A stretch of DNA of 64,000 nt from an uncultured Gaiellales bacterium (GCA_964631965.1 CAZWAR010000003.1:2064-66063); one strand, 5' to 3'. Counted from the stretch's first letter, positions 3,680 through 64,000 are shown. Numbers and translations: made by a program. Notes: generated by a model not told the origin, from the letters alone.

Positions 3680-5320
3680 CTATTCCGCTGAGAGCAGGAC
3701 GGGATAGAAGGGCTGGCCGCCCTGATGGAGGTCCATCTCCACCAAGGGATAGGCACCGCGTAGACTCTCCAGTGCTGCCGCCGCATGGTCTGCGTTCTCC
3801 TCGTCGCCTATCAGAGCGGTGAGCACTCCCCGACCCCCGTCCAGTAGCAGGGCCACCACCTGACTGACGACCGGTTCCAACTGGCTGCCGGCCACGACCA
3901 CCCGATCGTCGATGAGACCGATGAAGTCGTCCGCCCTGACCTGGACGCCATCCACAAGCGAGTCCCGCACGGCCCGAGTGATCTCTGCCGTCGCCACTCC
4001 CTCGATAGCCGCCCGCATGTCCCTGGCGTTCTCCGCCCCGGGCCTCCGCTTGTCGAGGGCCACGGCCGCGCTCAGTCCCGCTTGGATGGAACGGGTCGGT
4101 ACGACGATGACCTCCTTGTCGGTGAGGTTCACTGTCTGCTCCGCCGTCATGATGATGTTGCCGTTGTTGGGCAGGATGATCACCGACGGGGCCGCCGCCT
4201 TCTCCACCGCCCGCATGAGGTCTTCCGTGGAAGGGTTCATCGACTGCCCGCCTTCCACTATGAGGTCGACCCCCAGGTCGCGGAAGAGGGCCTTGTTCCC
4301 CTCGCCGGTCACCACGGCGACGACCTGGGTGAGACCGGCATCCGAGACCGACTCCTCCGTCGGCACGGCGGCGAGGCGCCGCTCGCGGGCCGCTCTCTGC
4401 TCCTTCATGTTGTCGATCTCGATCTCTGACAGTGTGCCCACCGGAGTCACCAGGGCCAGCACCGCCCCAGGTTCATCGGTGTGCACGTGCACCTTTATCT
4501 GCCGGTCGTCCCCGACCACCAGAAGGCTGTCCCCCAATCGCCCGAGCTCGTCCTCCAGCAGGGCCCTATCGAGACCCCGGCCGGTGAGCAGAAAGCTGGT
4601 GCAATAGGTGAAGTCGCCCACCTCCTCGGCTTCGGCCATCACAGGCAAGGGGGGAAGGGCCGCCTGTGCGGACCTCTTCATCGGCGCCGCCCTTCTGCCA
4701 CCTGGTCCGGCTGCGGCGCCCTCCACGAGGACCACAAGACCGAAACCTCCCGCATCGACCACTCCGGCATCGGCCAGGACCCGGAGCAGCGTGGGCGTCC
4801 TTTCCACGCTCGCCCATCCGGCAGACACCACCAGGCTCAGGAACTCCTGTAGATCGTTCCCATCGGGCGCCTCGGCTGCAGCCTCGGACATCTCCCGCAA
4901 CACGGTGAGCATCGTGCCCTCCACCGGCCTCCTCACCGCTCGATATGCGGTTTCGGTCGCGTGACGCAAAGCTCTTGTGAGGACCTCTTGGGTGACGGGT
5001 CCGTCCTGACCAAGGACCTCCATCGCTCCCCGGATGATCTGGGAGAGGATCACCCCGCTATTGCCCCTCGCCCCCATGAGAGCCGCCTGAGCAAGAGCCG
5101 AGCACACCTCTCGCTCGGCAAGCCCGTCGGGCAGCCGAGATACGGATTCGACCATGCCCTTGACTGTAAGGGCCAGGTTGGTTCCGGTGTCGCCGTCCGG
5201 CACCGGATACACGTTGAGATCGTTGATCTCCTGTTTGCGCTCCTCGAGGGCCGCGTACCCGGCGGCAAGCAGTTCCCGGGCGCGGGATGGCGTGAGCGAG
5301 TCTTCCGCGTTACTCCCCAA
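3680..5320 (-). CDS. fakA: DAK2-domain fatty acid kinase FakA (YloV-like)
   Basis: 546 aa with an N-terminal DAK2 domain (DGDTGTN). Sits in the conserved rpmB-asp23-yloV-recG neighbourhood. Confidence 0.85.
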   Translation of the reverse strand: MGSNAEDSLTPSRARELLAAGYAALEERKQEINDLNVYPVPDGDTGTNLALTVKGMVESVSRLPDGLAEREVCSALAQAALMGARGNSGVILSQIIRGAMEVLGQDGPVTQEVLTRALRHATETAYRAVRRPVEGTMLTVLREMSEAAAEAPDGNDLQEFLSLVVSAGWASVERTPTLLRVLADAGVVDAGGFGLVVLVEGAAAGPGGRRAAPMKRSAQAALPPLPVMAEAEEVGDFTYCTSFLLTGRGLDRALLEDELGRLGDSLLVVGDDRQIKVHVHTDEPGAVLALVTPVGTLSEIEIDNMKEQRAARERRLAAVPTEESVSDAGLTQVVAVVTGEGNKALFRDLGVDLIVEGGQSMNPSTEDLMRAVEKAAAPSVIILPNNGNIIMTAEQTVNLTDKEVIVVPTRSIQAGLSAAVALDKRRPGAENARDMRAAIEGVATAEITRAVRDSLVDGVQVRADDFIGLIDDRVVVAGSQLEPVVSQVVALLLDGGRGVLTALIGDEENADHAAAALESLRGAYPLVEMDLHQGGQPFYPVLLSAE

Positions 5321-27204: not shown

Positions 27205-27423
27205 TCACCCGGCCCTGAGGCTCACGCCTTCCCCGCCCTCAACGACCTCGGAACTCCCTCCGCAGAGACCGCAGGTGACGCGCTCCCCGCTCCAGATGCC
27301 CGCTCGCAGGTGCAGCAGCACGTGACAGTAAGGACAGGGAGTGTCCAGATCGGGCTCTTCGTTCTGGAGGGCCACCTTTTCGTCCACGATCTCCCATAAG
27401 GGATCGAACTTCTTCTTTGCCAC
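27205..27423 (-). CDS. Small zinc-ribbon protein (LysW/Trm112-like CPxC...CxxCG architecture)
   Basis: 72 aa: ...PCPYCHVLLHL...RVTCGLCGGSSEVV. Divergent to lipB. Confidence 0.45.
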   Translation of the reverse strand: MAKKKFDPLWEIVDEKVALQNEEPDLDTPCPYCHVLLHLRAGIWSGERVTCGLCGGSSEVVEGGEGVSLRAG

Positions 27424-29294: not shown

Positions 29295-29744
29295 TCAGTC
29301 TTGGGGTTGAGGCTCGGGCGGGAGGTTCGTTGTGAACCTGATCCTATCCTCGGGAGTGCCCGTGGGCTGGTGAAAGAAGGTGGGATTGCTGCAGGCAGCG
29401 CTCGCTGCCCCCGGGTACGCCTGTTCCACCCACACCTTGCACTGTTTGCGCGGCGAGCGATTGAGCTTGATGGCCCCGTACGTATCGACCCCCCGCGCAC
29501 GGCCGCGGCGGTTCTCGAACGCCGAGAGGTCGAATTCGGGCGCAAAGACCTTGTGCAGGCAGCCGAACATCCTGGTCTCGTCGTCGTCATACACGTAGAC
29601 CGAGGAGCAACCGGAATCGAGGCAATGCTGGGGCGAGACGACCCTCTCACAGATGACCTCGCACTCCCGGCACTCCAAACGGGTACGCTGCAGCCGGCGT
29701 CTCCATGCTCCAAGCCTGCTAGAGATGCGGGAATGTCTCTCCAT
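29295..29744 (-). CDS. Cys-rich hypothetical protein (unknown function)
   Basis: 149 aa with CRECEVICE...HCLDSGCSS...FGCLHK. I recognise no family. Confidence 0.4.
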   Translation of the reverse strand: MERHSRISSRLGAWRRRLQRTRLECRECEVICERVVSPQHCLDSGCSSVYVYDDDETRMFGCLHKVFAPEFDLSAFENRRGRARGVDTYGAIKLNRSPRKQCKVWVEQAYPGAASAACSNPTFFHQPTGTPEDRIRFTTNLPPEPQPQD

Positions 29745-29807
29745 GGGCGTGAGTATACCCGCCGTGAGCCCGCAGGGGCCGAGTTCGGCGCGGCCATCCG
29801 CTCGGCC

Positions 29808-30809
29808 TCATTCGACGGCCTCACGGCGCGTACCGGGTACCAGCCTCGTGCGCACCAGGGATCGGTCGGTGGCCCAGCGAAGCACTGCAGGTGAGAACGT
29901 CACTCCGCCGTCGACCCCCATGTCAACAGTTCGCGTGGCGAACACGGCCCCATGCAGCCTCGTCCCCTCCAGGAACACAGCTCCCCCGTCAGCGACGATG
30001 ACCCCGTACACGTCCCCGCGTTCGCTCGCATCCACCGATGCCCCACCGATGACCACGAACAGAGCCGGCATGGTCGCCTCGTTCCCCCAATCGGCCGGTA
30101 TGGAGGTGGTCCCGGACCGGCGATCAAAGATTATGACCTGCGGACCCGGTGCCAGACCGTCCCGGGCGGGGAGACCGTCTGCACCGACAGCCGGCGCGGA
30201 GTCCATGCAAAAACGCCGCCAGCCGTCATCGAGGCCCCACGAACGCCCTAGCCCACTCAGGCTGACACCTGGACCGAGAAGTGGTGACGGTGAAGCCATC
30301 CTCACAAGTCCGGTCGGCTGAAGGCCTACGGCCTCCTCGGTCTGCAACCAGGCATTCGCCCGCCCGGACGCCCAGGTGACCTGATCGGCCACCAAGCCGA
30401 CGAAAGGCAAATCGAATCCGTCGCTTCCGCGCTCGATCCATGCAGACACCTCGACCGGCAACACCGACGTCTCATGCGCCGCGGTGACCTCGAGTAGCAG
30501 GTCCGGGCTCCCCGTCCCCGCGGCGACACTCGCCCACACCCCCGCCGGCCAGCCGTCGCGAGCGTCAAGTCGCCGCTCGAACGTACTCCAAGAACCGAGC
30601 AGGTCGTCGCGCACCCATGCCAGTGCGCTATCGTTCTCTTCCATCAACAGCCGTCCCCTGGCCTCGGCTTCGTTGCCGCTGTCGAGACACACCGCCACAG
30701 CGGCCACCACCTGGACCAGCACCGCTACCCCCAGGCAGACGAACAACACCAACAGGAGAATGGACCCCTCCTCGCGGGCAGACGCGGGCCGCCCGGAGAG
30801 GCCGCTCAC
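29808..30809 (-). CDS. GspK/ComGG-like pilus-associated membrane protein (N-terminal TM helix, no Glu+5)
   Basis: In-frame GTG at 30809 overlaps the TGA of the upstream pseudopilin (GTGA coupling). The N-terminus is VSGLSGRPASAREEGSILLLVLFVCLGVAVLV. It is the last gene of the pseudopilin run. Confidence 0.5.
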   Translation of the reverse strand: MSGLSGRPASAREEGSILLLVLFVCLGVAVLVQVVAAVAVCLDSGNEAEARGRLLMEENDSALAWVRDDLLGSWSTFERRLDARDGWPAGVWASVAAGTGSPDLLLEVTAAHETSVLPVEVSAWIERGSDGFDLPFVGLVADQVTWASGRANAWLQTEEAVGLQPTGLVRMASPSPLLGPGVSLSGLGRSWGLDDGWRRFCMDSAPAVGADGLPARDGLAPGPQVIIFDRRSGTTSIPADWGNEATMPALFVVIGGASVDASERGDVYGVIVADGGAVFLEGTRLHGAVFATRTVDMGVDGGVTFSPAVLRWATDRSLVRTRLVPGTRREAVE

Positions 30810-31465
30810 CGACCCACCTCGGTTGAAGCCACCATTTCCGGCCGACCAGGACCACGATCGGCTCGGCCGACCAGATGAATGAAAACCGTGTCGAGCTGAC
30901 AAAGCGTAGTGGCCGGCATCGCGTCGCATTCTTGCCCGAGGCAAACGAAAGAGAACCTCGAGCTGGTGGTGTCCACGTCCTCCAGCATGGTCTTGCTGTC
31001 GCGATAGAGGGCGTGAGGGAAGACCTCGGGCATGAGAGCCGGACAGAAGCCCCAGCGACGCATGAGCGTCCCCCCTATCAACTCCCATTCGACTATGGTC
31101 GACACTCCCGAATCAGACAACCGGAGCAACACGAGCTGGGATGGCGTGGCCTGCAGAACCAGCCCGTCGACTTGGAAGGCGCAGCCGGAAGCGGTGGAGA
31201 GCCGCACATCCTGCTCGAGCCTCGCCACCGCCACCCGCCCCTGCGCGACCCACACCGCGTTGTCTCCCTCGACTGCCGCTAAGGACTCCAACGACACCCA
31301 GATGGGTGCCACTGCGAGTGCCAGACACAGGGCAAGAGCAAGGCCGAGGAGCACCTCTATGAGCGAATAACCCTCCGAGCCGGCGGCTCCGACCCCCCTC
31401 CTCTCGGGCCGGCACGCCCCCCGCATGCTCCTGACCCACCGGTCGAGGCGTACCGTCCGAGACCT
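30806..31465 (-). CDS. Prepilin-type N-terminal cleavage/methylation domain pseudopilin
   Basis: ...GSEG|YSLIEVLLGLALALCLA (G-1, E+5). The start is assumed at MRSRTV. Confidence 0.65.
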   Translation of the reverse strand, partial: RSRTVRLDRWVRSMRGACRPERRGVGAAGSEGYSLIEVLLGLALALCLALAVAPIWVSLESLAAVEGDNAVWVAQGRVAVARLEQDVRLSTASGCAFQVDGLVLQATPSQLVLLRLSDSGVSTIVEWELIGGTLMRRWGFCPALMPEVFPHALYRDSKTMLEDVDTTSSRFSFVCLGQECDAMPATTLCQLDTVFIHLVGRADRGPGRPEMVASTEVGR

Positions 31466-31475
31466 CATAACCCGT

Positions 31476-32252
31476 CTAGAAGTAGAGGTCGACACCCCGC
31501 CCCTCCTCCATCCACCACCATTGCCATTGACCGCCGAGCGCCGCCCCGGCCCAGCCTGACACCGGCGGATCCGCGGTGAAGACCAAGCCTGGCGGATGCG
31601 CCATGACCGGCTCCGATCCCCAGGAGACGTGCATGGCGGACGTGCCCGCCTGGGGGCGATGGACCACCACGGCCGGACTGAACGAGGGCAACCCTGCCGA
31701 GACGTTCGCTGCCGGTGGGCCTCCGGTGGGAGCGGGGACGACCGACCGCCGGGGCGGCCCCCAGATTCCATCGCCGGTTCGGACCCGGGCGATCACTTCG
31801 TCGCCTTCGAGCCCTGTCCACTTCCAAGGTTCTATCCGCGTCTCTCCAGGCAGGTCGGGTTCGGCGCTCGCGTCGAGCACGGGCGTCTCCAGGAGGAGGA
31901 GCCCGTCCGCCCATATGCCCAGCGTGGCCTCCGATGTCGACGAACACGCCCCGGGCGCGGTGCTCACATGTAGAACCGGCCCCGGACCCCACCAAGCCCC
32001 AGCCACTCTGGGGCCCCACTCCCAGGCCGCGGCCGTAGCGGGTGCCCAGGCCGCGGACTGAGCGCCGGCAGCCTGTCTCGCCAATCGAGACCGTTCGACC
32101 ACACCGGCGAACGCTGTGAAGAGAGGAACCACCAGGATCCCTACGAGCGCAACGGCCGCGATGACCTCCAAGAGTATGAAGCCGTCTCGCAACCGCAGGA
32201 GGCGTCGCAGGGTGCGCGCTCGCCTCCTTTTCACTGCGCCGCCTCCTCGCAA
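31476..32252 (-). CDS. Prepilin-type pseudopilin
   Basis: ...LRDG|FILLEVIAAVALVGILV prepilin motif; 258 aa. Confidence 0.65.
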   Translation of the reverse strand: MRGGGAVKRRRARTLRRLLRLRDGFILLEVIAAVALVGILVVPLFTAFAGVVERSRLARQAAGAQSAAWAPATAAAWEWGPRVAGAWWGPGPVLHVSTAPGACSSTSEATLGIWADGLLLLETPVLDASAEPDLPGETRIEPWKWTGLEGDEVIARVRTGDGIWGPPRRSVVPAPTGGPPAANVSAGLPSFSPAVVVHRPQAGTSAMHVSWGSEPVMAHPPGLVFTADPPVSGWAGAALGGQWQWWWMEEGRGVDLYF

Positions 32253-32761
32253 GACCTCCTGGTGAGGCCACTCTCCAGACGCACCGTGACCCGGTAGTCG
32301 TCGCCCGGAGCTTTGAAGTAGACGGAGCCGGCCGCATTGGGATGACCGGAGAGAGCGGCAAAGACGACGATCACCCCCTGGGCGGTCCGCCAGCGGGGAA
32401 CGTTTGCGACCTCGGCCACTGGGGGAACGGCGCTCCCGAGGTCCCAGCTGCTGCCACCCGGGTCCGCCGCTACGGCCAGGCCGGCGGGTGACGATTCGAG
32501 GACTTCATTCGTCCCCTGCCACACTGCTCCGGTTTGGGCGCACGCTGCCGCCACCTGCCATATCTGGGCTCCGCCCCTTGCCTCCACCGTCTCGATACCC
32601 CGGGGCAGCAGCACCAGCCCGATTGCGAGACAGATCCCCAGTAGTACGAGGACGACCAGCAGCTCGACGAGCGAGTGCCCCGATTGTCCGGAAACTACCG
32701 GGTGGGCGGAGGCTGGATGAGCGGCCCGCGAGCGAAGCCTTGAGTGCGTCCCACTTTGCAT
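32231..32761 (-). CDS. Prepilin-type pseudopilin (GspH-like position)
   Basis: ...SGQSG|HSLVELLVVLVLLGI (G-1, E+5). The N-terminal extent is uncertain. Confidence 0.6.
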   Translation of the reverse strand: MQSGTHSRLRSRAAHPASAHPVVSGQSGHSLVELLVVLVLLGICLAIGLVLLPRGIETVEARGGAQIWQVAAACAQTGAVWQGTNEVLESSPAGLAVAADPGGSSWDLGSAVPPVAEVANVPRWRTAQGVIVVFAALSGHPNAAGSVYFKAPGDDYRVTVRLESGLTRRSCEEAAQ

Positions 32762-32834
32762 GGGCCAAGGCTACTGGGGGTTCGGCCGATCAGAGATCGG
32801 ACCTTAGTCTGGCGCTGGCGGAGGAGGCACGTGA

Positions 32835-32865
32835 GGCCGGCGGCGCTCGCACGAGCGCCCGGCCT
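32835..32865 (-). terminator. GC-rich hairpin downstream of pilin gene 1 (candidate attenuating terminator between major pilin and pseudopilins)
   Basis: ggccgg-gcgctcg-tgc-gagcgc-cgccggcc inverted repeat 70 nt after the pilin stop. Confidence 0.4.
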
Positions 32866-32933
32866 GCCGAACGAGCAGACCAGGGCGGACCCGGCCTCCG
32901 CCTTCTCCGACAATACTCAGAATCTGCGGTCGG

Positions 32934-33479
32934 CTACCAGCCTAGTCCCGCAGTCCCCTCGATGACCTTCACCTTCACGTAGCCGCTCTCAGAAACGTTC
33001 AGCGCGTTGACCTGGATGCCGAACATGTTACCGCTCTCGCTCTTGCACGCCAGGTCGACGATATCCCCCGACTCTGGGTAGTACTCCACCTGGTTTGCCG
33101 CCGCGTCGGCGGTTAGCGCGTCGCTTATCCAGGCCGGTTCCGTGCTCACCAGATCATCGTCGGCCCGAATGAAATCGATACTCGGCTCGATGGCGTGAAG
33201 ATCGTCCGCTTCGATCAGTGTGTAGTCGTTTGTATCGACGAAAGCGCCCTGGATCGCGGTGAGAGAGTTTCGAACCAGCGAGTAGGCCGCTGCGTCCTGG
33301 GCGTGCTGGCGCTGCCCCATGAAGGTGGGGATGGCAATGGTGGCCAACACGGCGATGATGATGATGACGACCAGCAGTTCGATGAGCGTGAACCCGGCCG
33401 CGGCGTGACTCCCGACTCGGAGACTCCGCAGCATCCGCTGCCAGCGCCTGTTCCACATTATCTTCTCGATGGTCTTCAT
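32934..33479 (-). CDS. Type IV pilin (PilA-like major pilin), paralog 1
   Basis: ...AAAG|FTLIELLVVIIIIAVLATIAIPTFMGQRQ; C-terminus ...GTAGLGW. Confidence 0.8.
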   Translation of the reverse strand: MKTIEKIMWNRRWQRMLRSLRVGSHAAAGFTLIELLVVIIIIAVLATIAIPTFMGQRQHAQDAAAYSLVRNSLTAIQGAFVDTNDYTLIEADDLHAIEPSIDFIRADDDLVSTEPAWISDALTADAAANQVEYYPESGDIVDLACKSESGNMFGIQVNALNVSESGYVKVKVIEGTAGLGW

Positions 33480-33513
33480 GAGCCGCGCCCTCCTTCTGCG
33501 GCTTGATAGTATG

Positions 33514-34158
33514 TCAGGACGTGCTAGGGGTCGTGTTGTTCAAGTCCAGGGTGAGCCCCGATGCCGCAGCTATCCGACGCAACTCGTCCACTTCTCCCGC
33601 TCTTCCCTGCCGCTCGAGGAGCGAGATCAATACCACATAGGCGTGGGGATAGGAGCTGTCAGTCACCAGTGCCCTTCGCAAGCTGGCCTCAGCCGATTCT
33701 TCTTCTCCGGCGGATAACTGGGCCGAGCCCAAGAAGCTGAGATACTGAGCCGTGGGCTGGAGCCGACACGCTTCCTCGAATACCTGCACGGCTTTCCCGG
33801 CCTGCTCTTGGTGGTTCAGATAGTTGAACCCCAGTTCCACCCTGATCTGGGCTTCTCCGGGGTCCATCTCCACAGCCTTCTCCTGGACGGGAAGCGCTTC
33901 ATCCCACCGACGCTGAACGTACAGCACGGCGGCGAGAGCTTTCGTGGCAGAGACATCATCGGGATGCGCCGCCACGCATTGCTGGTAGAGCTTCGCGGCT
34001 GCGGCGAGATCCCCGGACTCCATCGCCTTCCCGGCTTGAGAAAGCGTACCGGAGCAGCTCGCCAGGGCGACGGCCAGCAGCACGAACGAGACCATGGATA
34101 CCCAGCGGGTGATGGTCGCTCTGTGGTTTGTGTCTGCCCGGTCGGGTCTTTCCTGCAT
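33514..34158 (-). CDS. TPR-repeat lipoprotein
   Basis: 214 aa with a signal peptide and lipobox (ALASCSG) and TPR-like repeats. Located between the two pilin paralogs. Confidence 0.65.
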   Translation of the reverse strand: MQERPDRADTNHRATITRWVSMVSFVLLAVALASCSGTLSQAGKAMESGDLAAAAKLYQQCVAAHPDDVSATKALAAVLYVQRRWDEALPVQEKAVEMDPGEAQIRVELGFNYLNHQEQAGKAVQVFEEACRLQPTAQYLSFLGSAQLSAGEEESAEASLRRALVTDSSYPHAYVVLISLLERQGRAGEVDELRRIAAASGLTLDLNNTTPSTS

Positions 34159-34236
34159 CTGCGACTCCTAGCGAACTCCGGACTGGATACCACCGTTCTT
34201 GGTGACGTTCGCAGCCAGAGCAGTTACTTGTCCTCT

Positions 34237-34274
34237 AGCGAAATGGGGCCCCACAGATGGGGCCCCATTTCGCT
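34237..34274 (-). terminator. Perfect 16-bp-stem palindrome downstream of pilin gene 2
   Basis: agcgaaatggggcccc-acagat-ggggccccatttcgct begins 19 nt after the pilin-2 stop. Confidence 0.5.
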
Positions 34275-34292
34275 CAGGTTTCGTCTTGATGA

Positions 34293-34775
34293 TTACCAGC
34301 CGGCGCTGGTGTCGCCGTCGATGGTCTTGACAAAGGTCGTCGAGCCTCCGGCGCCCTTGTCGGTCACCACGCCGAACACGTTGCCGGATTCGCTAGCGGT
34401 CGCGATCTCGAAAGTGGTGCCATCGCCGAAGAAGTCCACGGCAGCGTCGGTAGCCACCTGGGTCGCAGCCACGGCCGGCGTATCCGCGCAGACGCCGCCG
34501 TCGGCGTCTTTGACGAATTCAATCGACGGCTCGATAGCGTTGAGCTCGTCGCCGGTCACATCATACGTGCGGGAGTCGACATAGGCGGATTCCAGGGCGG
34601 TCATGGCATTGCGGACGAGTGATTTAGCAGCTGCGTCCTGGGCTTTCTGACGCTGGCCCAGGAAGGTCGGGATGGCGATCGCCGCCAGGATGGCGATGAT
34701 GATGATCACCACCAGGAGTTCGATGAGGGTGAAACCTTTTTCGCCCTTCATCCTTTTGTGGATCTTCATGAACAT
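34293..34775 (-). CDS. Type IV pilin (PilA-like major pilin), paralog 2
   Basis: MFMKIHKRMKGEKG|FTLIELLVVIIIIAILAAIAIPTFLGQRQ...SAGW. GGAGGAGGA Shine-Dalgarno 8 nt upstream of the start. Confidence 0.8.
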   Translation of the reverse strand: MFMKIHKRMKGEKGFTLIELLVVIIIIAILAAIAIPTFLGQRQKAQDAAAKSLVRNAMTALESAYVDSRTYDVTGDELNAIEPSIEFVKDADGGVCADTPAVAATQVATDAAVDFFGDGTTFEIATASESGNVFGVVTDKGAGGSTTFVKTIDGDTSAGW

Positions 34776-35312
34776 CGTGTGTGTTCCTCCTCCTGTTTGT
34801 TCGCGGACTCTTTTTGTTTGAGACCGCGAACCTTTCGCGGCCCAGCACGCCAGGTGTGACGTACCGCTTTCTTCATCGGCCAGTGTGGGGCAGGACTTTA
34901 GGGTTTCTTTTGCGACTTTGGTGCAATTTTGGCGCGGCTGTCTACTGAGAGCTCGCACACGCACGTCGAACGCGCCCTATATGGACCATTCGAAGCCCCG
35001 AACGGCACCTCGGCCTAAAGGCCCAACCCGCGCCTGCCGATACTCCTGACAGGACTAGAACGGGGGTCAACGTGGTCCCGGCCGAGTCTTCTCGGATCCC
35101 TCCTCCAGAGAGGGTCATTCATCCGCCATGCGGCCGAAACCTCAAGGCTTGTGCGGTTCTGCCGATACACATGGAGAACCCATCGAGGGAGGCACCGAGG
35201 CATGAATGCTTCAGCGCTCAGGTATAGGATCGGTCCGGCCAGATCCTCAGATGATCGCCCGTGTCCAGACGCGCGCCGTCGCGGAACCGGAGACCGGCAC
35301 CGCCTGCGCGAG

Positions 35313-36881
35313 ATGGTTGGACGCACTCGAGGCTTCACCGTAGTCGAGGTGCTGGTCGCGGGTCTGGTGCTCGTGGTCGGCCTCATCTTCATCGCCCACT
35401 TCTTCACGGCCTCGGCCATGCGCGTGCTCGCCTCCGACACCCGGTCGGTCATGGCTCAGATCGCCACCGAGGAAATCGAGACGATCCGCGGTCTGCAGTA
35501 CCAGGACATCGGCACGGTCGGCGGCCACCCGCCCGGGCAACTCGCAGCCGTCGAGACCGTCAACAGGGAAGGGAGCGACTTCGAGATCCAGCGAGACATC
35601 ACTTACTTCGAGGACGACGCGTACTCCGGGCCGTATCCGGCCAACTACCGCCGGGTCACAGTCACCGTTACCGCGCTCGATAGCGACGCTCTCGACCCCG
35701 TCGTCATGACTACGAACATCGCGGGTGGTGCGAAAGGAGGCACCCTCGACATCACCGTCACCGATCTGAGCGGTCAGGGCCTGCCGGACGCTCCCCTCGT
35801 CATCTCGGACAACCTGCTGGTCCCCCACGTCTTGATAAACGCCCCCACCATCCGCACCGACGGAACCGGCCATCTCCAGGTGCCCGGCTTGACCGAGGAC
35901 CCCAACGGCGGCTATTTCGTCAGCGCGAGTTACCCGGGCTACAACAGCGCAGCCCTGGAACAAGGGGTAGTCGTCGCGACGGGCCAGACCACGGTGGTCC
36001 AACTGATCATGGACAGGCTTGCGACCATGCACATCCACCTGACGGACCAGTATGGCACCGCCCTCTCAGGGGTCCCTCTCCGGGTCACGGGATTCCTGTC
36101 CGTTAGCCCATGGACCTTTGAGCAGACAGTCACCACCGATAGCAGCGGCAATGCCACACTCGAGGACATCCGGTTCTCGACCTCTCTCGAGCCGTACTTC
36201 ATCGAGCTCGTCACACCGCACAATCCGCCGCTGGCTCTGCCCACCGGCGTGAGCGCGCCTGCCATCGATTCCAGCTTCCTGCCTCTCCCGGACGGTAAGA
36301 TCCCGGTAATCCTCGATCCCGGTCAGACCCAAACTGTCAACCTCGTCGTATCCACCGGTCCTGCCGTCACTTCCGTAAGTCCGGCCAGCGGCGGCCCGTC
36401 CGGCGGCACCACAGTTGTCATCAACGGTGCGAACTTCAATGGAGCCACCGCAGTCAAGTTCGGCAGTACCGACGCGGCCAGCTTCGTCGTCGACTCCGCT
36501 GCCCGCATCACTGCGGTCTCTCCGGCAGGCTCCGGCACCGTAGACATCACCGTGACCACACCCAACGGCACTTCGGCCCAGGTCGCGGCCGACCAGTACA
36601 CCTACGTGTCGCTTCTTCCCCCAACGGTGCAAGCTGTGAGCCCCAGCAGTGGCTACCGGGGTGGCGGCACGACGGTAGTCATCACCGGCACGAACTTCGT
36701 CAACGTGACCAAAGTGCAGTTCGGATACCGGGATGCGGACAGCTTCATCGTCGAGTCCAGTACGACGATCCGGGCCGTCACACCTTCGGGCTGGGGCACT
36801 GTCGACGTGACCGTCACCAATTCGGCGGGGGCCTCAGATACCTGGTGGGGCGACTGGTTCACATACACCTGGCGCAGGTAG
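35313..36881 (+). CDS. Modular prepilin-type protein with beta-sandwich and two C-terminal IPT/TIG domains (putative pilus adhesin / minor pilin)
   Basis: MVGRTRG|FTVVEVLVAGLVLVVGLIF prepilin leader; internal PEGA/CarboxypepD_reg-like segments; two IPT-like repeats (PAVTSVSPASGGPSGGTTVVINGANF..., PTVQAVSPSSGYRGGGTTVVITGTNF...). Confidence 0.7.
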   Translation: MVGRTRGFTVVEVLVAGLVLVVGLIFIAHFFTASAMRVLASDTRSVMAQIATEEIETIRGLQYQDIGTVGGHPPGQLAAVETVNREGSDFEIQRDITYFEDDAYSGPYPANYRRVTVTVTALDSDALDPVVMTTNIAGGAKGGTLDITVTDLSGQGLPDAPLVISDNLLVPHVLINAPTIRTDGTGHLQVPGLTEDPNGGYFVSASYPGYNSAALEQGVVVATGQTTVVQLIMDRLATMHIHLTDQYGTALSGVPLRVTGFLSVSPWTFEQTVTTDSSGNATLEDIRFSTSLEPYFIELVTPHNPPLALPTGVSAPAIDSSFLPLPDGKIPVILDPGQTQTVNLVVSTGPAVTSVSPASGGPSGGTTVVINGANFNGATAVKFGSTDAASFVVDSAARITAVSPAGSGTVDITVTTPNGTSAQVAADQYTYVSLLPPTVQAVSPSSGYRGGGTTVVITGTNFVNVTKVQFGYRDADSFIVESSTTIRAVTPSGWGTVDVTVTNSAGASDTWWGDWFTYTWRR

Positions 36882-36885
36882 AGCT

Positions 36886-37596
36886 ATGAACAACAAGACA
36901 ATCTCATCGAAGGCCCGCTTCTGGCTCTCGCTACGGAGCCCCAGAGGATTCACGCTGATCGAACTGCTGGTGGTCTGCCTGACCGCGGGCATCCTGGGTA
37001 TGGCCATCCTAGGCGTATACGAGAGCGTCATGCGCTCGTGGGCCGACACCAGCCACCGCATCGTCAACCAGGACGACGCGCGCTACGCCATCAACGAGAT
37101 CGCCCGCTACCTCCGCATGGCTGAGTCCTCGGCCTCCAACCTCTCGTCCCAGTCGGACGCAATCGCTACGGCCACGGCGAGCGAGCTCGTCTTCTACGCC
37201 GATATCAACGGCGATGGACTGGCCGAGAAGTGCCGGTACTACCTGGATGGTACGACTCTCCGGCTGGCCACCCTTCCCCCGGATACCTCCGACAGCCCGC
37301 CTACCTACCCCACTGAGTACGTCACCGACGGAGTCGTCATCATGCAGGGCATCCAGGACCCCAATCTGTTTACGTACTACAGGCTGAACCCGGCATACGC
37401 CCTCAATCCCATACCGGAGAATGACACCCTGGAACAGGTGGTCAATCCCGCTTCAGCGGCCGATCTGCGGAGCATTGTCGCCGTCGACATCCGTCTTCGG
37501 GTGAACGAGACTCCCGGCTTGCCGAAGGCCAATGTGGCCTTGGACACCCGTGTCCAGATCCGCCAGCGCTACAACGGAGGTCTCAGTGGAGTCTAG
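36886..37596 (+). CDS. PilW-like minor pilin (prepilin-type)
   Basis: ...SPRG|FTLIELLVVCLTAGILGMAILG; 236 aa. Confidence 0.65.
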   Translation: MNNKTISSKARFWLSLRSPRGFTLIELLVVCLTAGILGMAILGVYESVMRSWADTSHRIVNQDDARYAINEIARYLRMAESSASNLSSQSDAIATATASELVFYADINGDGLAEKCRYYLDGTTLRLATLPPDTSDSPPTYPTEYVTDGVVIMQGIQDPNLFTYYRLNPAYALNPIPENDTLEQVVNPASAADLRSIVAVDIRLRVNETPGLPKANVALDTRVQIRQRYNGGLSGV

Positions 37597-39139
37597 ATCT
37601 CGCACCATCGGCCGTCTACCGGGTCGCCTCGGCCTGCGACTGCAGAGCGAGCGCGGTTACGTGTTGATCCTCGCCATGCTGGTGTTGGTAGCCATCGGTA
37701 TGGCCTCGGCCGCCCTGCTCTCGGCGATATCCGTGAACCAGCAGCACGTGTCCCGCGACCGGTCCTACTCGCAGTCGCTCACTGTGGCGGAAGCGGGCTT
37801 GAACCAGTACCTCTGGATGGTGGCGAGCGGAGAAAGCTCGCGCAGCAACGGTTTCGCCATCGCCGGCAACACCGAGGCCGATGACCCCTTGTTCAAGGAA
37901 TTCGAGTTCAACGACATCCACGATGCCTCGGTCAAGGGTGTGTACGCCACGCAGGTGTCCCCTCCCAGCGCAACGAACCCGAACGTGACCGTGACGGTCA
38001 CCGGGCAGGCGACCTCGCCCATGGACACTCCGAGAACCGTCACTGCTTCTCTCGGGCGTCCCTCGTTCAGCCAATACCTGCTGCTCACCAACGACGAGGT
38101 CTGGATCGGTGGGCCGCTCGATCGCGTCTGGCACGGCAAGACCTTCTCGAACACCGGCATCTGTGTGGACACGGCCAACCTCGTCGAGACGATGTCCTGT
38201 TCCAGGGCCACGTATTCCAGCAGCATGTTCGGAGGCACTCGCAACGGCGTCTGGTCGGGCTACCTGTATACAGTCCCCCTCAACGATCCTTCCCGGGCGC
38301 TGTGGCAGTTCCCCGTGCCGGCCATCAGCTTCTCGACGGTGACCTCGGACTTCGTCAATCTGAACAGCCTGGCCGTAGGCAACGGGGTGAACCTACCGTA
38401 CTCAACAAGTACTTCGCACGGAGAAACCCAGGGTTGGTATATCAAGCTCCTACCGGACGAGAAGTACCAGATCAAGCGAGTGACCGCGGAAAGTGAGTCG
38501 ACGGGCGGGAGCGGCGGCAGCCTCAGCTACGTGAACCCCAGTTCCCCGGTTCCGAGCACGATTCTTAGCTACCCGACCAACGGCGTCATCTACGTGAACG
38601 ACAATGTGTGGGTGGAGGGCACCGACATCGATGGGCGCATCACCATCGCCAGTTCCGGGCAGCTCAACCCAACCGGCAAGAACTCGGCCACCTCCATCCA
38701 CATCGTGGGCAACCTCACCTACTCCCACAAGGATGGCACGGTCGCCGTGGGCCTCATCGCTCAGAACGACATCGAGATACCCCGATACGCGCCTTTGGGA
38801 GCGGGCGGTTCCGTCTCCCTGCAGGACATGGAGATCGACGCCGCGCTCATCGCGCAGCAGGGCAGAGAGTCCTGCAACGCGGCCGATTCGCTCAACAACG
38901 CATACGGGCCCGTCCGCGACATGCTCACCATCTACGGTTCGGTCAGCTCGTACCACACGCCCTATCGCAGCACGGTCAACAACTACGGTACGACCCTGGG
39001 CGGCTTCGCCAACGGCACGAACACGTACGACCCCTGGCTGCTGAACGACCCGCCGCCGTACTTCCCCACGGTCGGGAGCTACCAGATCCTGAACTGGCAG
39101 GAGTTGCCCAATACCCAGTCGGTGCTTCCCAGCCCATGA
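37586..39139 (+). CDS. PilX-like minor pilin with large C-terminal beta-helix-like domain
   Basis: GTG start after a GGAGG Shine-Dalgarno. PilX_N-like segment ERGYVLILAMLVLVAIGMASAALLSA...LTVAEAGLNQ. C-terminal repeated VxVxGxxIxGxI strands. Confidence 0.6.
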   Translation: MESRSRTIGRLPGRLGLRLQSERGYVLILAMLVLVAIGMASAALLSAISVNQQHVSRDRSYSQSLTVAEAGLNQYLWMVASGESSRSNGFAIAGNTEADDPLFKEFEFNDIHDASVKGVYATQVSPPSATNPNVTVTVTGQATSPMDTPRTVTASLGRPSFSQYLLLTNDEVWIGGPLDRVWHGKTFSNTGICVDTANLVETMSCSRATYSSSMFGGTRNGVWSGYLYTVPLNDPSRALWQFPVPAISFSTVTSDFVNLNSLAVGNGVNLPYSTSTSHGETQGWYIKLLPDEKYQIKRVTAESESTGGSGGSLSYVNPSSPVPSTILSYPTNGVIYVNDNVWVEGTDIDGRITIASSGQLNPTGKNSATSIHIVGNLTYSHKDGTVAVGLIAQNDIEIPRYAPLGAGGSVSLQDMEIDAALIAQQGRESCNAADSLNNAYGPVRDMLTIYGSVSSYHTPYRSTVNNYGTTLGGFANGTNTYDPWLLNDPPPYFPTVGSYQILNWQELPNTQSVLPSP

Positions 39140-62034: not shown

Positions 62035-64000
62035 CTAGTAGATATACACGTACGTCCCCACCGCCACCAGCGGATATATGGCGTCCTGATCCCAGTAGAG
62101 GGTCCGCACGCAGCCGTGACTGGCCGGATAGGTGGGCACGCTCGGATAGCCGTGGATAGCCAGCAGCGTCGTGCTGATGTACAGCGGGTGGTACCGCGGG
62201 CTGGTCTCCATTGTCTTGCGGGTCACCGTGTACGTGCGCGACGGGGTGACGATGCCCACGCTCGCACTTCCTGTTGACACGGGGATGGTCCAAACGACTG
62301 CCCCGTCCTTGCAGTAGAGCAGCACCTGCTTGGTCTTGTTCACTTCGATCCATGGGTTGGTTGCTCCGATCCTGCTTGGGCGGGGCCGGCTGGCCACCGT
62401 CAGCGCGTTGAGGACGGCAGCCGAGACCTTGCCGTCACGGGTGAGACCCTGCCACTTCTCGAAGGCGATGATGGCTCCCGTCGTCTTGCCGTCGAAGACG
62501 CCGTCGACGGTGCCGGGCCGGTATGACAGGTCGCTCAGCCTCTGTTCGACCCACAACCGTTGCCCTGCGGTCAACGTCAGTTCCCAAGGAAGCGTCCCCC
62601 GTATGTCGAAAGCATCAACGCTGATGAACGCTCCCTCGTCGTTCCCCTCGTCCCACGTGATCTCCACCACGTGCTCGCCGCTCCTCAGAAGGCCGGTGCT
62701 CCACGCCGCCTCCTGATAGACCGTACTGGGACTGTACAGGTCCACCAGTACGGGAGCGCTGCCGTCCACCGATACCTCCGCCGAGCCCATCTCCGGACCG
62801 AGAGTCGCGATCCAATCGAGACGGGTCCCGACGAAGTCGACGGTGATACCGCTGCCGCCGCCTCCCAGTTTGTAGTTCCCCCCCGAGGCGGACGGCGATG
62901 AGGCCACGTGCCAGGTGCCCGCGTTCAGCAGCCGCGGATCGTCCTGTTCGTAGCGCGCGGTGAAATAGGCCTGCAGCACATCACCCTCCACATCGAAGGC
63001 ATCGACGCTGATGTACTTGCCGACCGGATTGGAGGTGTCGTACCAGATCTTGACCTCGTGATCTCCCGGCGAGAGGTCCCCGGTCTCCCAGACCTTCTGC
63101 TGATAGGCCACCACGTCGGCCGCAAGGTCTACGTTCACGGCCGGACCCCCGTCCACCGACACGAACGCTCTTGCGAGGGTGGTTCCTCTGGTGGCGATCC
63201 AAGCGAGATAGGTCCCATTGAAGTCGACAACCGCAGCACCCGTCGGGCTGCTGGTGCGGGCATAGCTACCACCGGACGCGTTGCTCGTGAAGAACTCGGC
63301 CCAGGTGCCGCCTCCGAACGCTATACGCCCGTCTGTCTGGTCTACCCGACCCATCCCGCTGAGCGAGCCCAGCACGTCCACGGCGTCGATGGTGACGAAC
63401 TCCCCATATGCGCTCGTGTCGCTGCGCACGATTTTGACCGTGTGGAGACCGCCGTCGAGGTCCCCGGTCGACCACACCCTCTGCTGGTAGACGGCCACGC
63501 TGTTGCGGAGGTCGACGGTGGCGGCGAAGGCGTCGTCCAGATACACCTCGGCGATGCCGGTGGTGGTGCCTCTCATGGCGATCCAGTCGAGCCGGGTGCC
63601 GGTGAAGCTGACGGTGACGGAGGCGTCGGCGCTCGAGGAGCGGCTGTAGCTGTCCTGCCAGGCCAGGGTCTTGGCGAAGGGGGCCCAGCCACCGGCGTAG
63701 AAGAGGCGGGCGTCGGTCTGGTCGTAGCGCATCATGAAGGTGTAGTCGTCGGCGGCGGTGTTCGGGCTCGCGCCTCCGGCCGCCGTCACCACCACATCCA
63801 CCTTCCCGGTCGCGTGAGCCGGAGTGACCGCGGTGATCCGGGTGTCGGAGTCCACGGTGTAGCTGGCCGCGTCCATCCCTCCGAAGGACACCGCCGAGGA
63901 GCCCGAGAGGCCGGTGAAGCCGGTGCCGGTGATGACGAGGGGAACGCCTCCGGCGCTGGGGCCGGAATCGAGGCTGAGGCCGGTCACGGTGGGGGCAGGG
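62035..64000 (-). CDS. L,D-transpeptidase (YkuD) family protein with IPT/TIG domain and tandem ~120-aa repeats; 5' end beyond window
   Basis: C-terminal YkuD catalytic domain (HGYPS...ASHGCVRT), a peptidoglycan-binding-like segment and three tandem repeats (about 62602-63732). The reading frame stays open to the window edge. Confidence 0.75.
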   Translation of the reverse strand, partial: PAPTVTGLSLDSGPSAGGVPLVITGTGFTGLSGSSAVSFGGMDAASYTVDSDTRITAVTPAHATGKVDVVVTAAGGASPNTAADDYTFMMRYDQTDARLFYAGGWAPFAKTLAWQDSYSRSSSADASVTVSFTGTRLDWIAMRGTTTGIAEVYLDDAFAATVDLRNSVAVYQQRVWSTGDLDGGLHTVKIVRSDTSAYGEFVTIDAVDVLGSLSGMGRVDQTDGRIAFGGGTWAEFFTSNASGGSYARTSSPTGAAVVDFNGTYLAWIATRGTTLARAFVSVDGGPAVNVDLAADVVAYQQKVWETGDLSPGDHEVKIWYDTSNPVGKYISVDAFDVEGDVLQAYFTARYEQDDPRLLNAGTWHVASSPSASGGNYKLGGGGSGITVDFVGTRLDWIATLGPEMGSAEVSVDGSAPVLVDLYSPSTVYQEAAWSTGLLRSGEHVVEITWDEGNDEGAFISVDAFDIRGTLPWELTLTAGQRLWVEQRLSDLSYRPGTVDGVFDGKTTGAIIAFEKWQGLTRDGKVSAAVLNALTVASRPRPSRIGATNPWIEVNKTKQVLLYCKDGAVVWTIPVSTGSASVGIVTPSRTYTVTRKTMETSPRYHPLYISTTLLAIHGYPSVPTYPASHGCVRTLYWDQDAIYPLVAVGTYVYIY

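What the first reader, a model, noticed from the sequence alone, without database searches (positions are those of the whole stretch)
29295..39139. Divergent type IV pilus / pseudopilus structural-gene locus embedded in the housekeeping backbone, with no motor, platform or peptidase genes
There are nine consecutive genes with prepilin-type signatures or pilus-associated features. On the minus strand: two PilA-like pilins, a TPR lipoprotein, three pseudopilins, a GspK-like protein lacking E+5, and a Cys-rich protein. On the plus strand: an IPT-domain prepilin plus PilW-like and PilX-like genes. The locus sits between tRNA-Arg/rnz and dut and interrupts otherwise conserved synteny. The combination of an H/I/J/K-like pseudopilin run and a PilV/W/X-like minor-pilin set in one locus resembles no single canonical T4aP, T2SS or ComG layout. 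It could be a lineage-specific filament system.
Basis: partly seen in the sequence, partly recalled or inferred. Interest (0 to 1): 0.8.

Follow-up and report, generated by a model that had tools for sequence, protein, structure and literature searches.

The report
Actinobacterial type IV pilin gene cluster
This is a real, conserved cluster of pilus-fibre genes from an uncultured actinobacterium; it encodes two main fibre subunits and two sets of tip proteins, each capped by a protein shaped like the DNA-binding tip protein ComZ of Thermus, while the motor that builds the fibre is encoded somewhere else.

Summary
Nine adjacent genes carry prepilin-type N-termini: seven have G|(F/H/Y)xxxE and two lack E+5. 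A TPR lipoprotein gene and a Cys-rich gene lie among them. The rest of the 64-kb window is housekeeping genes.

The locus is not an island. The same 11 genes lie between dut and rnz in many uncultured Actinomycetota/Thermoleophilia MAGs.

Conserved sigma-28/WhiG-type promoters (TAAAG-N15-16-GCCGATA) precede pilA1 and pilV. This matches what is published for Rubrobacter type IV pilus genes.

No pilB, pilC, pilD or pilM lies in the window or within 10 kb in about 55 related Actinomycetota-type loci. In distant low-GC relatives the V-W-X trio sits inside pilB-pilC-pilA-VWX-pilMNO operons.

Verdict: this is a pilin and tip-complex locus of a type IVa-like pilus. It is a new variant of a known kind, not a new filament system. 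The Cys-rich protein is an unexplained orphan family.

The parts
34293..34775 (-). pilA1: probable major pilin (160-aa precursor, leader MFMKIHKRMKGEKG|FTLIE, mature 147 aa)
   Evidence: Pfam N_methyl 35.9 bits. Best NCBIfam hits are PilA_Myxo and GspG, both below cut-off. Start at 34775 with a GGAGGAGG ribosome-binding site. It has its own sigma-28-type promoter and is followed by a strong hairpin. Copy number is 1-3 in relatives.
34873..34900 (-). Sigma-28/FliA/WhiG-type promoter upstream of pilA1 (TAAAGTCCTGCCCCACACTGGCCGATGA)
   Evidence: One of only 2 matches to TAAA-N14-17-GCCGAT in 64 kb (0.08 expected). The same motif lies 80-135 bp upstream of the pilA1 cleavage site in 11 other loci.
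34237..34274 (-). Perfect 17-bp G+C-rich hairpin directly after the pilA1 stop codon (terminator or attenuator candidate)
   Evidence: RNA fold of 34159-34295(-): -61.6 kcal/mol, z = -5.4, and 0 of 200 shuffles fold as well. There is no U-tract, and the simple terminator scan did not list it.
33514..34158 (-). TPR lipoprotein (lipobox LASC) between the two pilin genes
   Evidence: TPR_16, TPR_14 and TPR_2 match. NCBIfam type_IV_pilW scores 47.9 bits against a cut-off of 154 and Tgl scores 40 against 225, so neither is met. Its position between the pilins is conserved in relatives.
32934..33479 (-). pilA2: second PilA-type pilin (181-aa precursor, mature 153 aa)
   Evidence: Pfam N_methyl 29.3 bits. 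GFTLIE is invariant in 10 orthologs.
32231..32761 (-). H-like minor pilin (SG|HSLVE, mature 149 aa)
   Evidence: Pfam N_methyl 25.6 bits. Weak, sub-threshold GspH (24.4 bits) and ComGD hits. G(-1) and E(+5) are invariant.
31476..32252 (-). I-like minor pilin (DG|FILLE, mature 235 aa); its start overlaps the end of the H-like gene
   Evidence: N_methyl 16.8 bits, sub-threshold. G(-1) and E(+5) invariant in 9 orthologs. hhalign to the PilV-like family: probability 92.5%, E 4.8e-7 over 141 columns.
30806..31495 (-). J-like minor pilin (EG|YSLIE, mature 188 aa); overlaps the I-like and K-like genes
   Evidence: N_methyl 14.4 bits, sub-threshold. hhalign to the PilW-like family: probability 98.2%, E 3.7e-14 over 193 columns. 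Start chosen by ribosome-binding site and ortholog length.
29808..30809 (-). K-like cap pilin without E+5 (G|SILLL), 333 aa: long N-terminal helix, pilin sheet and beta-solenoid (small ComZ-type cap)
29295..29744 (-). Cys-rich 149-aa protein, a conserved neighbour lying 11 bp upstream of rnz; probably cytoplasmic, role unknown
   Evidence: 8 invariant Cys and no hydrophobic N-terminus. Only 148 homologs, none named outside Actinomycetota/Thermoleophilia MAGs, with no Pfam or PDB match. It lies between K-like and rnz in every locus where both were seen.
35016..35043 (+). Sigma-28/FliA/WhiG-type promoter upstream of pilV (TAAAGGCCCAACCCGCGCCTGCCGATAC). A weaker second candidate, TCAA-N15-GCCGATAC, lies at 35142-35168.
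   Evidence: The second of the 2 matches in the window. The motif lies 112-204 bp upstream of the pilV cleavage site in 11 other loci. The second candidate was read from the sequence.
35202..36881 (+). PilV-like modular minor pilin (RG|FTVVE, mature 516 aa): pilin module, Ig-like domains and two C-terminal IPT/TIG domains. The start is 35202 or 35313.
   Evidence: TIG PF01833 E 2.5e-22. NCBIfam PilV 25 bits, below cut-off. The N-terminal ~350 aa are conserved in 36 orthologs. The IPT/TIG tail occurs only in the closest relatives L005, L033 and L035.
36886..37596 (+). PilW-like minor pilin (RG|FTLIE, mature 216 aa)
   Evidence: Pfam N_methyl 23.7 bits. 42 orthologs have E(+5) invariant. Paralog of J-like.
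37586..39139 (+). PilX-like cap pilin without E+5 (RG|YVLIL), 517 aa: GspK-like pilin domain plus a large beta-solenoid (ComZ-type cap)

Best explanation
The locus is the pilin and tip-complex gene cluster of a type IVa-like pilus in an uncultured, high-G+C member of the Actinomycetota (labelled Thermoleophilia or 'Gaiellales' in public MAGs).

Content: pilA1, and probably pilA2, supply the fibre subunit. Two sets of minor pilins form priming/tip complexes of the GspH-I-J-K / FimU-PilV-W-X kind. These are H-I-J-K on the minus strand and V-W-X on the plus strand.

Caps: each set ends in a cap subunit that lacks E+5. Each cap carries a beta-solenoid on a GspK-like pilin domain, the architecture otherwise solved only for Thermus ComZ. 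PilV also carries Ig-like and IPT/TIG modules, so the tip displays large binding surfaces.

Regulation: transcription of pilA1 and of pilVWX starts from divergent sigma-28/FliA/WhiG-type promoters. A strong hairpin after pilA1 would keep the major pilin in excess over the downstream TPR-pilA2-HIJK genes.

Assembly: the prepilin peptidase, PilB-type ATPase, PilC platform and PilMNO must be encoded elsewhere in the genome.

What is shown: the gene content, motif conservation, folds, paralogy, promoter motif and synteny.

What is inferred: that the caps sit at the tip; that the two sets are alternative or co-operating tips; that V-W-X is the core priming set, because it is the more conserved, occurs alone in many genomes and lies inside pilB-pilC-pilA-VWX-pilMNO operons in distant relatives; and the function. 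I commit to adhesion or substrate capture by the tip. DNA capture as in Thermus is a serious sub-option at about 0.3.
For: Prepilin motifs occur in nine adjacent genes and nowhere else in 64 kb.

Across up to 42 orthologs per family, G(-1) is invariant apart from one exception each in PilW-like and PilX-like. E(+5) is invariant in the seven E5-type families. Position +5 is non-acidic in both caps.

The H, I, J and K genes overlap, which indicates translational coupling.

J and W are paralogs, and I and V probably are.

The 11-gene cluster is conserved between dut and rnz across species.

The TAAA-N14-17-GCCGAT motif occurs twice in the window against 0.08 expected. In 584 kb of window plus loci, 22 of 24 occurrences lie within 300 bp upstream of the pilV or pilA1 cleavage site. 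Rubrobacter T4P genes are driven by WhiG promoters with -35 TAAA and -10 GCCGATAA, and cultured Thermoleophilia carry WhiG/RsiG (PMC8325347).

In the low-G+C relatives L034, L061 and L063 the V-W-X trio lies in pilB-pilC-(pilA)-VWX(-pilM...) operons.
Against: No assembly ATPase, platform, peptidase or PilM was found in the window or within 10 kb of the trio in about 55 related Actinomycetota-type loci. The existence of the machine in this genome is therefore inferred, not shown.

The PilX-like model is only moderately confident (pLDDT 72). Its global TM-score to ComZ is low, 0.25-0.29. There is no sequence-level similarity to ComZ or GspK.

Assigning H, I and J to the GspH/I/J classes rests on gene order, size and weak profile hits only.

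No sigma-28 gene was seen, because it was not searchable.

The role of the TPR lipoprotein in a presumably monoderm cell is unexplained.
Confidence: 0.8

Rival explanations
1. It is specifically a competence (DNA-uptake) pilus locus. The ComZ-like caps would bind extracellular DNA at the pilus tip, as Thermus ComZ/PilA2 do, and retraction would deliver the DNA to a ComEA/ComEC channel.
For: ComZ is the best structural match of the large cap and a strong match of the small one. ComZ binds DNA and, with PilA1-3, is needed for transformation (PMC6561018). A distant relative, L061, has a ComEC-family gene 7 kb from a pil operon that contains two V-W-X sets.
Confidence: 0.3
2. It is a type II secretion-like or Com-like pseudopilus: a short, non-surface piston that serves secretion across the wall, not an extended pilus.
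For: There is an H-I-J-K order with a GspK-fold cap. There are weak GspG, GspH and ComGC/ComGD profile hits.
Against: All GspG/H/I/J and ComG hits are far below their NCBIfam cut-offs, for example GspH 24 bits against 80. The T4aP minor pilins FimU-PilVWX are homologous to GspH-K (general knowledge), so gene order does not discriminate. Relatives of the V-W-X trio sit with PilM_2-type genes, which mark T4aP-like machines. Two PilA-type pilins with their own strong promoter, and large modular tip proteins, fit an extended fibre better.
Confidence: 0.08
3. It is an orphan or decaying set of pilin genes with no working machine: a remnant kept by chance.
For: No motor, platform or peptidase gene was seen in the window or near about 55 related Actinomycetota-type loci.
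Against: The ORFs are intact in the window. The cleavage-site and E5 residues are invariant or nearly so. The PilX-like protein keeps 47-83% identity across species. The promoters are conserved. The gene order is conserved. None of this is expected without selection for function.
Confidence: 0.04

Closest known systems
Thermus thermophilus competence-pilin locus pilA1-pilA2-pilA3-comZ-pilA4 (ComZ structure 6QVI; PMC6561018)
   Different: There is no detectable sequence homology to ComZ. Here there are two such caps of different size, in two sets. The organism belongs to the Actinomycetota, which are presumably monoderm, so no secretin has to be passed. A TPR lipoprotein and a Cys-rich protein are embedded in the locus. 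The major pilins lie upstream, not downstream. The insertion point of the solenoid in the pilin fold was not checked.
Rubrobacter radiotolerans / R. xylanophilus type IV pilus gene clusters under WhiG-(RsiG)2-c-di-GMP control (PMC8325347)
   Same: Both are deep-branching Actinomycetota. The pil genes are preceded by promoters with -35 TAAA and -10 GCCGATAA.
   Different: [quoted passage not shown] Whether the Rubrobacter cluster includes machinery genes, or minor pilins homologous to these, was not read. No WhiG or RsiG gene could be looked for in this genome.
T4aP core minor pilins FimU-PilV-PilW-PilX(-PilY1) of Pseudomonas and GspH-I-J-K of T2SS (GspIJK complex 3CI0)
   Same: Four-gene minor-pilin operon with overlapping genes. 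The last subunit lacks E5 and has the GspK fold. The presumed role is priming assembly and forming the tip (role from general knowledge).
   Different: The cap inserts are beta-solenoids, not the alpha-helical domain of GspK. There is no PilY1-like gene. None of the NCBIfam equivalog cut-offs is met.
Pil operons of low-G+C (Patescibacteria-type) genomes: pilB-pilC-pilA-V-W-X-pilM-N-O (loci L034, L061, L063)
   Same: They hold a homologous V-W-X trio in the same order. The X protein is 24-31% identical at full length, with HMM E 1e-55 to 1e-62.
   Different: There the trio is operonic with the motor, platform and PilM. Here it is a stand-alone operon with its own promoter, next to a second minor-pilin set.
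Modular type IV pilins of Streptococcus sanguinis (PilB, PilC) and multiple minor-pilin/PilY1 clusters of Myxococcus xanthus (recalled from general knowledge, not tested here)
   Same: Pilins with grafted functional modules (here Ig-like and IPT/TIG on PilV). More than one tip set serves one machine.

Membership tests
Type IV pilin / pseudopilin (class III signal peptide proteins) | Conserved G at -1, a hydrophobic N-terminal helix of about 20 residues, and E at +5 (absent only in GspK/PilX-type caps) | tested here: met
   Seven genes have G|(F/H/Y)xxxE. Two have G followed by a hydrophobic helix without E5. These residues are invariant or nearly invariant across orthologs.
Type IV pilin / pseudopilin (class III signal peptide proteins) | Pfam N_methyl (PF07963) at or above the gathering score of 21.2 bits | tested here: inconclusive
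   Met for pilA1, pilA2, H-like and PilW-like (35.9, 29.3, 25.6 and 23.7 bits). Sub-threshold for I-like (16.8) and J-like (14.4). No hit for PilV-like, K-like or PilX-like.
Type IV pilin / pseudopilin (class III signal peptide proteins) | Cleavage and N-methylation by a PilD-type prepilin peptidase | not testable with these tools
   There is no peptidase gene in the window. The rest of the genome could not be searched.
Type IVa-like pilus system (complete machine) | PilB-type ATPase (T2SSE), PilC platform (T2SSF) and PilM/N/O in the same genome | not testable with these tools
   Absent from the window and from +-10 kb in about 55 related Actinomycetota-type loci. Present next to the homologous V-W-X trio in L034, L061 and L063.
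ComZ-type cap pilin | Pilin-like domain of the GspK type, with an N-terminal hydrophobic helix and no E5 | tested here: met
ComZ-type cap pilin | Large beta-solenoid of the ice-binding-protein type joined to the pilin domain | tested here: met
ComZ-type cap pilin | Sequence homology to Thermus ComZ | tested here: not met
   Profile searches of both families against all PDB sequences gave no ComZ hit at E <= 1 (PilX-like) or E <= 10 (K-like). The two cap families are also not detectably similar to each other.
ComZ-type cap pilin | Binds DNA and a GspI-like partner pilin | not testable with these tools
   This needs biochemistry. Only adjacency to the I-like and V-like genes is seen.
Type II secretion pseudopilins GspG/H/I/J/K | NCBIfam equivalog models at or above their cut-offs | tested here: not met
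   GspH 24.4 bits against a cut-off of 80. GspG 46.8 against 88.85. GspJ 18.5 or less against 64.85. GspI 17.4 or less against 44.35.
ComG competence pseudopilus (ComGC-GG) | NCBIfam ComGC/GD/GE/GF equivalog models at or above their cut-offs | tested here: not met
   ComGC 37.9 bits against 75. ComGD 21.5 against 70. ComGE 24.8 against 49.
Sigma-28 (FliA/SigD/WhiG)-dependent promoters | -35 TAAA and -10 GCCGATAA separated by about 15-16 nt, placed upstream of the gene | tested here: met
   2 matches in 64 kb against 0.08 expected, both in the divergent pilA1/pilV intergenic region. 22 of 24 matches in 584 kb lie within 300 bp upstream of the pilA1 or pilV cleavage site. More were found in the metagenome loci.
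Sigma-28 (FliA/SigD/WhiG)-dependent promoters | A sigma-28-family gene in the genome and a mapped transcription start | not testable with these tools
   No such gene was seen in the window. WhiG/RsiG are reported for cultured Thermoleophilia (PMC8325347).
PilF/PilW/Tgl TPR lipoprotein (secretin pilotin) | NCBIfam type_IV_pilW or Tgl at cut-off, and a secretin partner | tested here: not met
   47.9 bits against 154 and 40 against 225. Only generic TPR repeats plus a lipobox are present. No secretin was seen.

The most novel reading that the evidence does not exclude
ComZ-type beta-solenoid cap pilins would not be a Thermus curiosity. They would define a large, unannotated family: 1109 cluster representatives and no Pfam model. 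That family would form the core tip of type IV pili in uncultured Actinomycetota and in Patescibacteria-type bacteria. In this actinobacterial clade, two different ComZ-type tips under sigma-28/WhiG control would give the pilus two binding specificities, one of them DNA. That would point to natural competence in a soil and sediment lineage never cultured. The co-conserved cytoplasmic Cys-rich protein would be a new regulator or chaperone of the system.
Probability: 0.25. Interest if true: 0.6.

Novelty: new variant of a known kind. Interest (0 to 1): 0.4.

Why it matters
It adds a well-defined type IV pilus structural locus for a widespread but uncultured actinobacterial lineage. It shows that the ComZ architecture, a pilin domain plus a beta-solenoid, is widespread and occurs twice in one locus; until now it was solved only for Thermus. 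It extends the sigma-28/WhiG control of pili known from Rubrobacter to this clade. It gives concrete candidates, two caps and a modular PilV, for testing what these bacteria bind: surfaces, polymers or DNA. It does not reveal a new kind of filament machine.

Tried and rejected
- Exact-sequence look-ups of the window's PilW-like protein and of P0001 found no contig on record.
- Sequence-profile searches of the K-like, PilX-like, J-like, I-like, H-like, PilW-like, PilV-like and Cys-rich families against PDB sequences matched only the N-terminal pilin helix, or nothing.
- hhalign of K-like against PilX-like found no similarity beyond the N-terminal helix.
- A Walker-A scan and tblastn with the Patescibacteria PilB and PilC found no motor or platform gene in the window or in any locus fetched up to then (L001-L060) except L034 itself. 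L061-L063 were fetched later and do carry them.
- The distant loci L057 and L060 have the trio among housekeeping genes with no machinery.
- The simple terminator and sigma-70 scans gave nothing above chance.
- The literature search for the clade name RBG-16-64-13 gave nothing on pili.
- The afdb50 fold library was not available.
- I considered and rejected a horizontally acquired island, because G+C is close to the window average (0.60-0.685 against about 0.65) and the position is conserved.
- I considered and rejected the Cys-rich protein as a pilus subunit, because it has no signal peptide or hydrophobic helix.
- I could not test for PilB, PilC or PilD elsewhere in this or related genomes.

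Full report
**1. Observation**

On the minus strand, in order of transcription, lie:
- pilA1 (34293-34775)
- a TPR lipoprotein (33514-34158)
- pilA2 (32934-33479)
- an H-like pilin (32231-32761)
- an I-like pilin (31476-32252)
- a J-like pilin (30806-31495)
- a K-like protein without E+5 (29808-30809)
- a Cys-rich protein (29295-29744), followed after 11 bp by rnz and then tRNA-Arg

On the plus strand lie:
- a PilV-like protein with two IPT/TIG domains (35202 or 35313 to 36881)
- a PilW-like protein (36886-37596)
- a PilX-like protein without E+5 (37586-39139), convergent with dut

A motif scan for G-[FYH..]-x-x-x-E plus a hydrophobic stretch finds seven sites in the 64-kb window. All seven lie in these genes.

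Pfam N_methyl passes its threshold for four proteins and is sub-threshold for two. NCBIfam gives only sub-threshold hits to PilA, GspG/H/I/J, ComG and PilV models.

All other GC3-supported ORFs of the window are housekeeping genes. They include recG, fakA, the rib operon, fmt, def, priA, metK, a liv-type ABC transporter, lipB, dapF, miaA, miaB, rny, recX, recA, ftsK, RNase J and pnp. None is a T2SSE ATPase, T2SSF platform, A24 peptidase or PilM.

**2. Conservation and setting**

The PilX-like protein has 143 listed homologs at 47-83% identity. Nearly all those that carry a name come from MAGs labelled Actinobacteria, Actinomycetota or Thermoleophilia. One scan of GTDB species genomes returned 30 loci. 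One scan of JGI metagenomes returned 26 more.

tblastn of the 11 window proteins shows the whole cluster between dut and rnz in L004/L012, L010, L015, L020, L023, L028, L029, L031-L033, L035, L044, L050 and L054. The flanks are also conserved: aminotransferase-dut on one side and rnz-lipB-deacetylase on the other.

In some genomes all genes point the same way. In the window and its closest relatives (L001/L005, L031-L033, L035, L050) the V-W-X block is inverted, which creates the divergent intergenic region.

In other genomes (L008, L013, L018, L026, L038-L041 and others) the V-W-X trio stands alone among unrelated genes.

G+C in the locus is 0.60-0.685, against about 0.65 for the window.

The locus is thus part of the clade's conserved backbone, not an insertion that interrupts it.

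**3. Functional constraint**

Across orthologs, G(-1) is invariant in seven of the nine prepilin-like families and has a single exception each in PilW-like and PilX-like. E(+5) is invariant in the seven E5-type families. Position +5 is L/F/V/I/M in both families that lack E5, with one P in PilX-like.

The H, I, J and K genes overlap one another by 4-22 nt.

This pattern is what selection by a prepilin peptidase and by filament assembly would produce. It argues against a decaying remnant.

**4. What the two E5-less proteins are**

The PilX-like family was modelled with 20 sequences: pLDDT 72, pTM 0.63.
- In Foldseek the three ComZ chains are the only significant PDB hits, E 1.5e-7 to 3.8e-7. 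The global TM-score is low, 0.25-0.29.

The ComZ paper describes ComZ as a GspK-like pilin domain with an inserted ice-binding-type beta-solenoid. It proposes that ComZ caps the pilus tip, and shows that ComZ binds the adjacent pilin PilA2 and binds DNA (PMC6561018).

Both window proteins therefore share the ComZ architecture. Neither shows sequence similarity to ComZ, to GspK or to the other. I call them ComZ-type by fold, not members of a ComZ sequence family.

**5. Two partly paralogous tip sets**

- J-like and PilW-like are homologous over their whole length (hhalign probability 98.2%, E 3.7e-14).
- I-like and the N-terminal part of PilV-like are probably homologous (92.5%, E 4.8e-7).
- K-like and PilX-like share a fold.
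- H-like has weak GspH and ComGD similarity and has no counterpart in the plus-strand set.

The locus therefore encodes H + (I, J, K) and (V, W, X). These are two versions of the GspIJK / PilVWX tip complex.

The V-W-X set is the more conserved and the more widespread.

The PilV-like protein has a conserved N-terminal region of about 350 residues: a pilin module plus CarboxypepD_reg-like Ig domains. Its C-terminus is variable. The two IPT/TIG domains occur only in the nearest relatives.

**6. Link to an assembly machine**

No PilB-type Walker A motif and no tblastn match to PilB or PilC occurs in the window or in loci L001-L060, apart from L034.

An exhaustive HMM search with the PilX-like profile found 1109 cluster representatives at E<=1e-3 and 196 at E<=1e-30. 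Most are full-length proteins of 450-540 aa without names.

Distant low-G+C members (37-42% G+C in L061-L063; one relative is labelled Patescibacteria) lie in complete pil operons:
- L034: pilB-pilC-V-W-X
- L063: pilB-pilC-pilin-V-W-X-pilM plus three small genes
- L061: pilB-pilC-pilin-[V-W-X]-[V-W-X]-pilM and further genes, with a ComEC-family gene 7 kb away

This ties the trio to a PilB/PilC/PilM-type machine. It makes it likely that such a machine exists elsewhere in the actinobacterial genomes, but that step is inferred.

**7. Regulation**

The pattern TAAA-N14-17-GCCGAT occurs exactly twice in the window, against 0.08 expected. Only 1 of 100 shuffles reaches 2. Both occurrences lie in the divergent intergenic region. 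One points to pilA1 (34873-34900, minus strand) and one to pilV (35016-35043, plus strand).

In 584 kb of window plus 30 loci there are 24 occurrences. Of these, 22 lie 80-288 bp upstream of a pilA1 or pilV cleavage site. The other two precede an extra pilin block in L005 and frameshifted pilV fragments in L031. The metagenome loci show the same pattern.

The consensus TAAAG-N15/16-GCCGATA is the sigma-28 / FliA / SigD / WhiG promoter. Schumacher et al. showed that WhiG promoters (-35 TAAA, -10 GCCGATAA) drive the type IV pilus cluster of Rubrobacter, and that cultured Thermoleophilia carry WhiG and single-motif RsiG (PMC8325347).

A perfect 17-bp G+C-rich hairpin follows the pilA1 stop codon (34237-34274, z = -5.4). 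This fits a highly expressed major pilin gene followed by attenuated read-through into TPR-pilA2-HIJK. The attenuation is an inference.

**8. The two non-pilin genes**

The TPR protein has a lipobox and generic TPR repeats. It fails the PilW/PilF and Tgl models. Its place between the pilin genes is conserved, but its role is unknown.

The Cys-rich protein belongs to an orphan family:
- It has 148 homologs, none named outside Actinomycetota/Thermoleophilia MAGs.
- It has eight invariant cysteines and no signal peptide.
- It has no Pfam or PDB match.
- It lies between the K-like gene and rnz in every locus where both were seen. In one NCBI MAG its locus tag is adjacent to that of the K-like gene.
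- NCBI annotates only a 91-residue version in this genome (P0276), whereas orthologs are conserved from residue 1.

It is probably cytoplasmic. It may belong either with the pilus genes or with rnz, and I could not decide which.

**9. Comparison and verdict**

The closest known system in content is the Thermus pilA1-4/comZ locus. The closest in phylogeny and regulation are the Rubrobacter type IV pilus clusters. The closest in mechanism is the GspHIJK / FimU-PilVWX priming complex.

The differences are:
- two ComZ-type caps in two sets
- a modular PilV
- an embedded TPR lipoprotein and a Cys-rich protein
- a stand-alone V-W-X operon
- a presumably monoderm host

None of these requires a new kind of machine. 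I rate the finding a new variant of a known kind, real and well conserved, with moderate interest (0.4).

Its idea of a lineage-specific filament system that resembles no canonical layout is only partly supported.

Noticed in passing
window 29295-29744 (-): An orphan Cys-rich protein family with 8 invariant Cys and no signal peptide. It has about 150 homologs, none named outside this actinobacterial clade, and no Pfam or PDB match. It lies between the K-like cap pilin and rnz in every locus where both were seen. NCBI annotates only a 91-aa C-terminal version here (P0276).
   Followed up: partly
window 27205-27423 (-): A 72-aa ORF with two CxxC pairs (zinc-ribbon-like) between the polysaccharide deacetylase gene and lipB. 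A 73-aa gene is called at the same place in L004 (20031-20252).
   Followed up: no
window 62035-63987 (-): A second IPT/TIG-containing protein in the window: TIG + CE2_N + PG_binding_1 + YkuD (L,D-transpeptidase). It lies at the edge of the window and may be truncated.
   Followed up: no
L005 4700-7600 (same contig as L001): The closest long-read relative has an extra four-gene block (264, 224 [N_methyl weak], 248 and 173 aa [DUF2572 weak]) between pilA1 and pilV. The block is preceded by its own TAAAG...GCCGATAC motif at 3968-3995, which suggests a third minor-pilin-like set. Many genes in this nanopore assembly are frameshifted.
   Followed up: partly
L016 2000-4300 (-); L013 8350-9620: L016 carries an additional, divergently oriented V-like (495 aa mature) and W-like (204 aa) pair next to the standard V-W-X. 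In L013 the pilW gene is split by a 372-aa ORF, possibly an insertion element.
   Followed up: no
L061 4696-11632 and 18660-20060: A low-G+C relative has two tandem V-W-X sets inside one pilB-pilC-pilA-...-pilM operon, and a ComEC-family (PF03772) gene 7 kb downstream.
   Followed up: partly
window 32790-32936 (-): The 172-bp spacer between pilA2 and the H-like gene folds into a long G+C-rich structure (-74 kcal/mol, z = -2.6). Whether it has a regulatory role is unknown.
   Followed up: no
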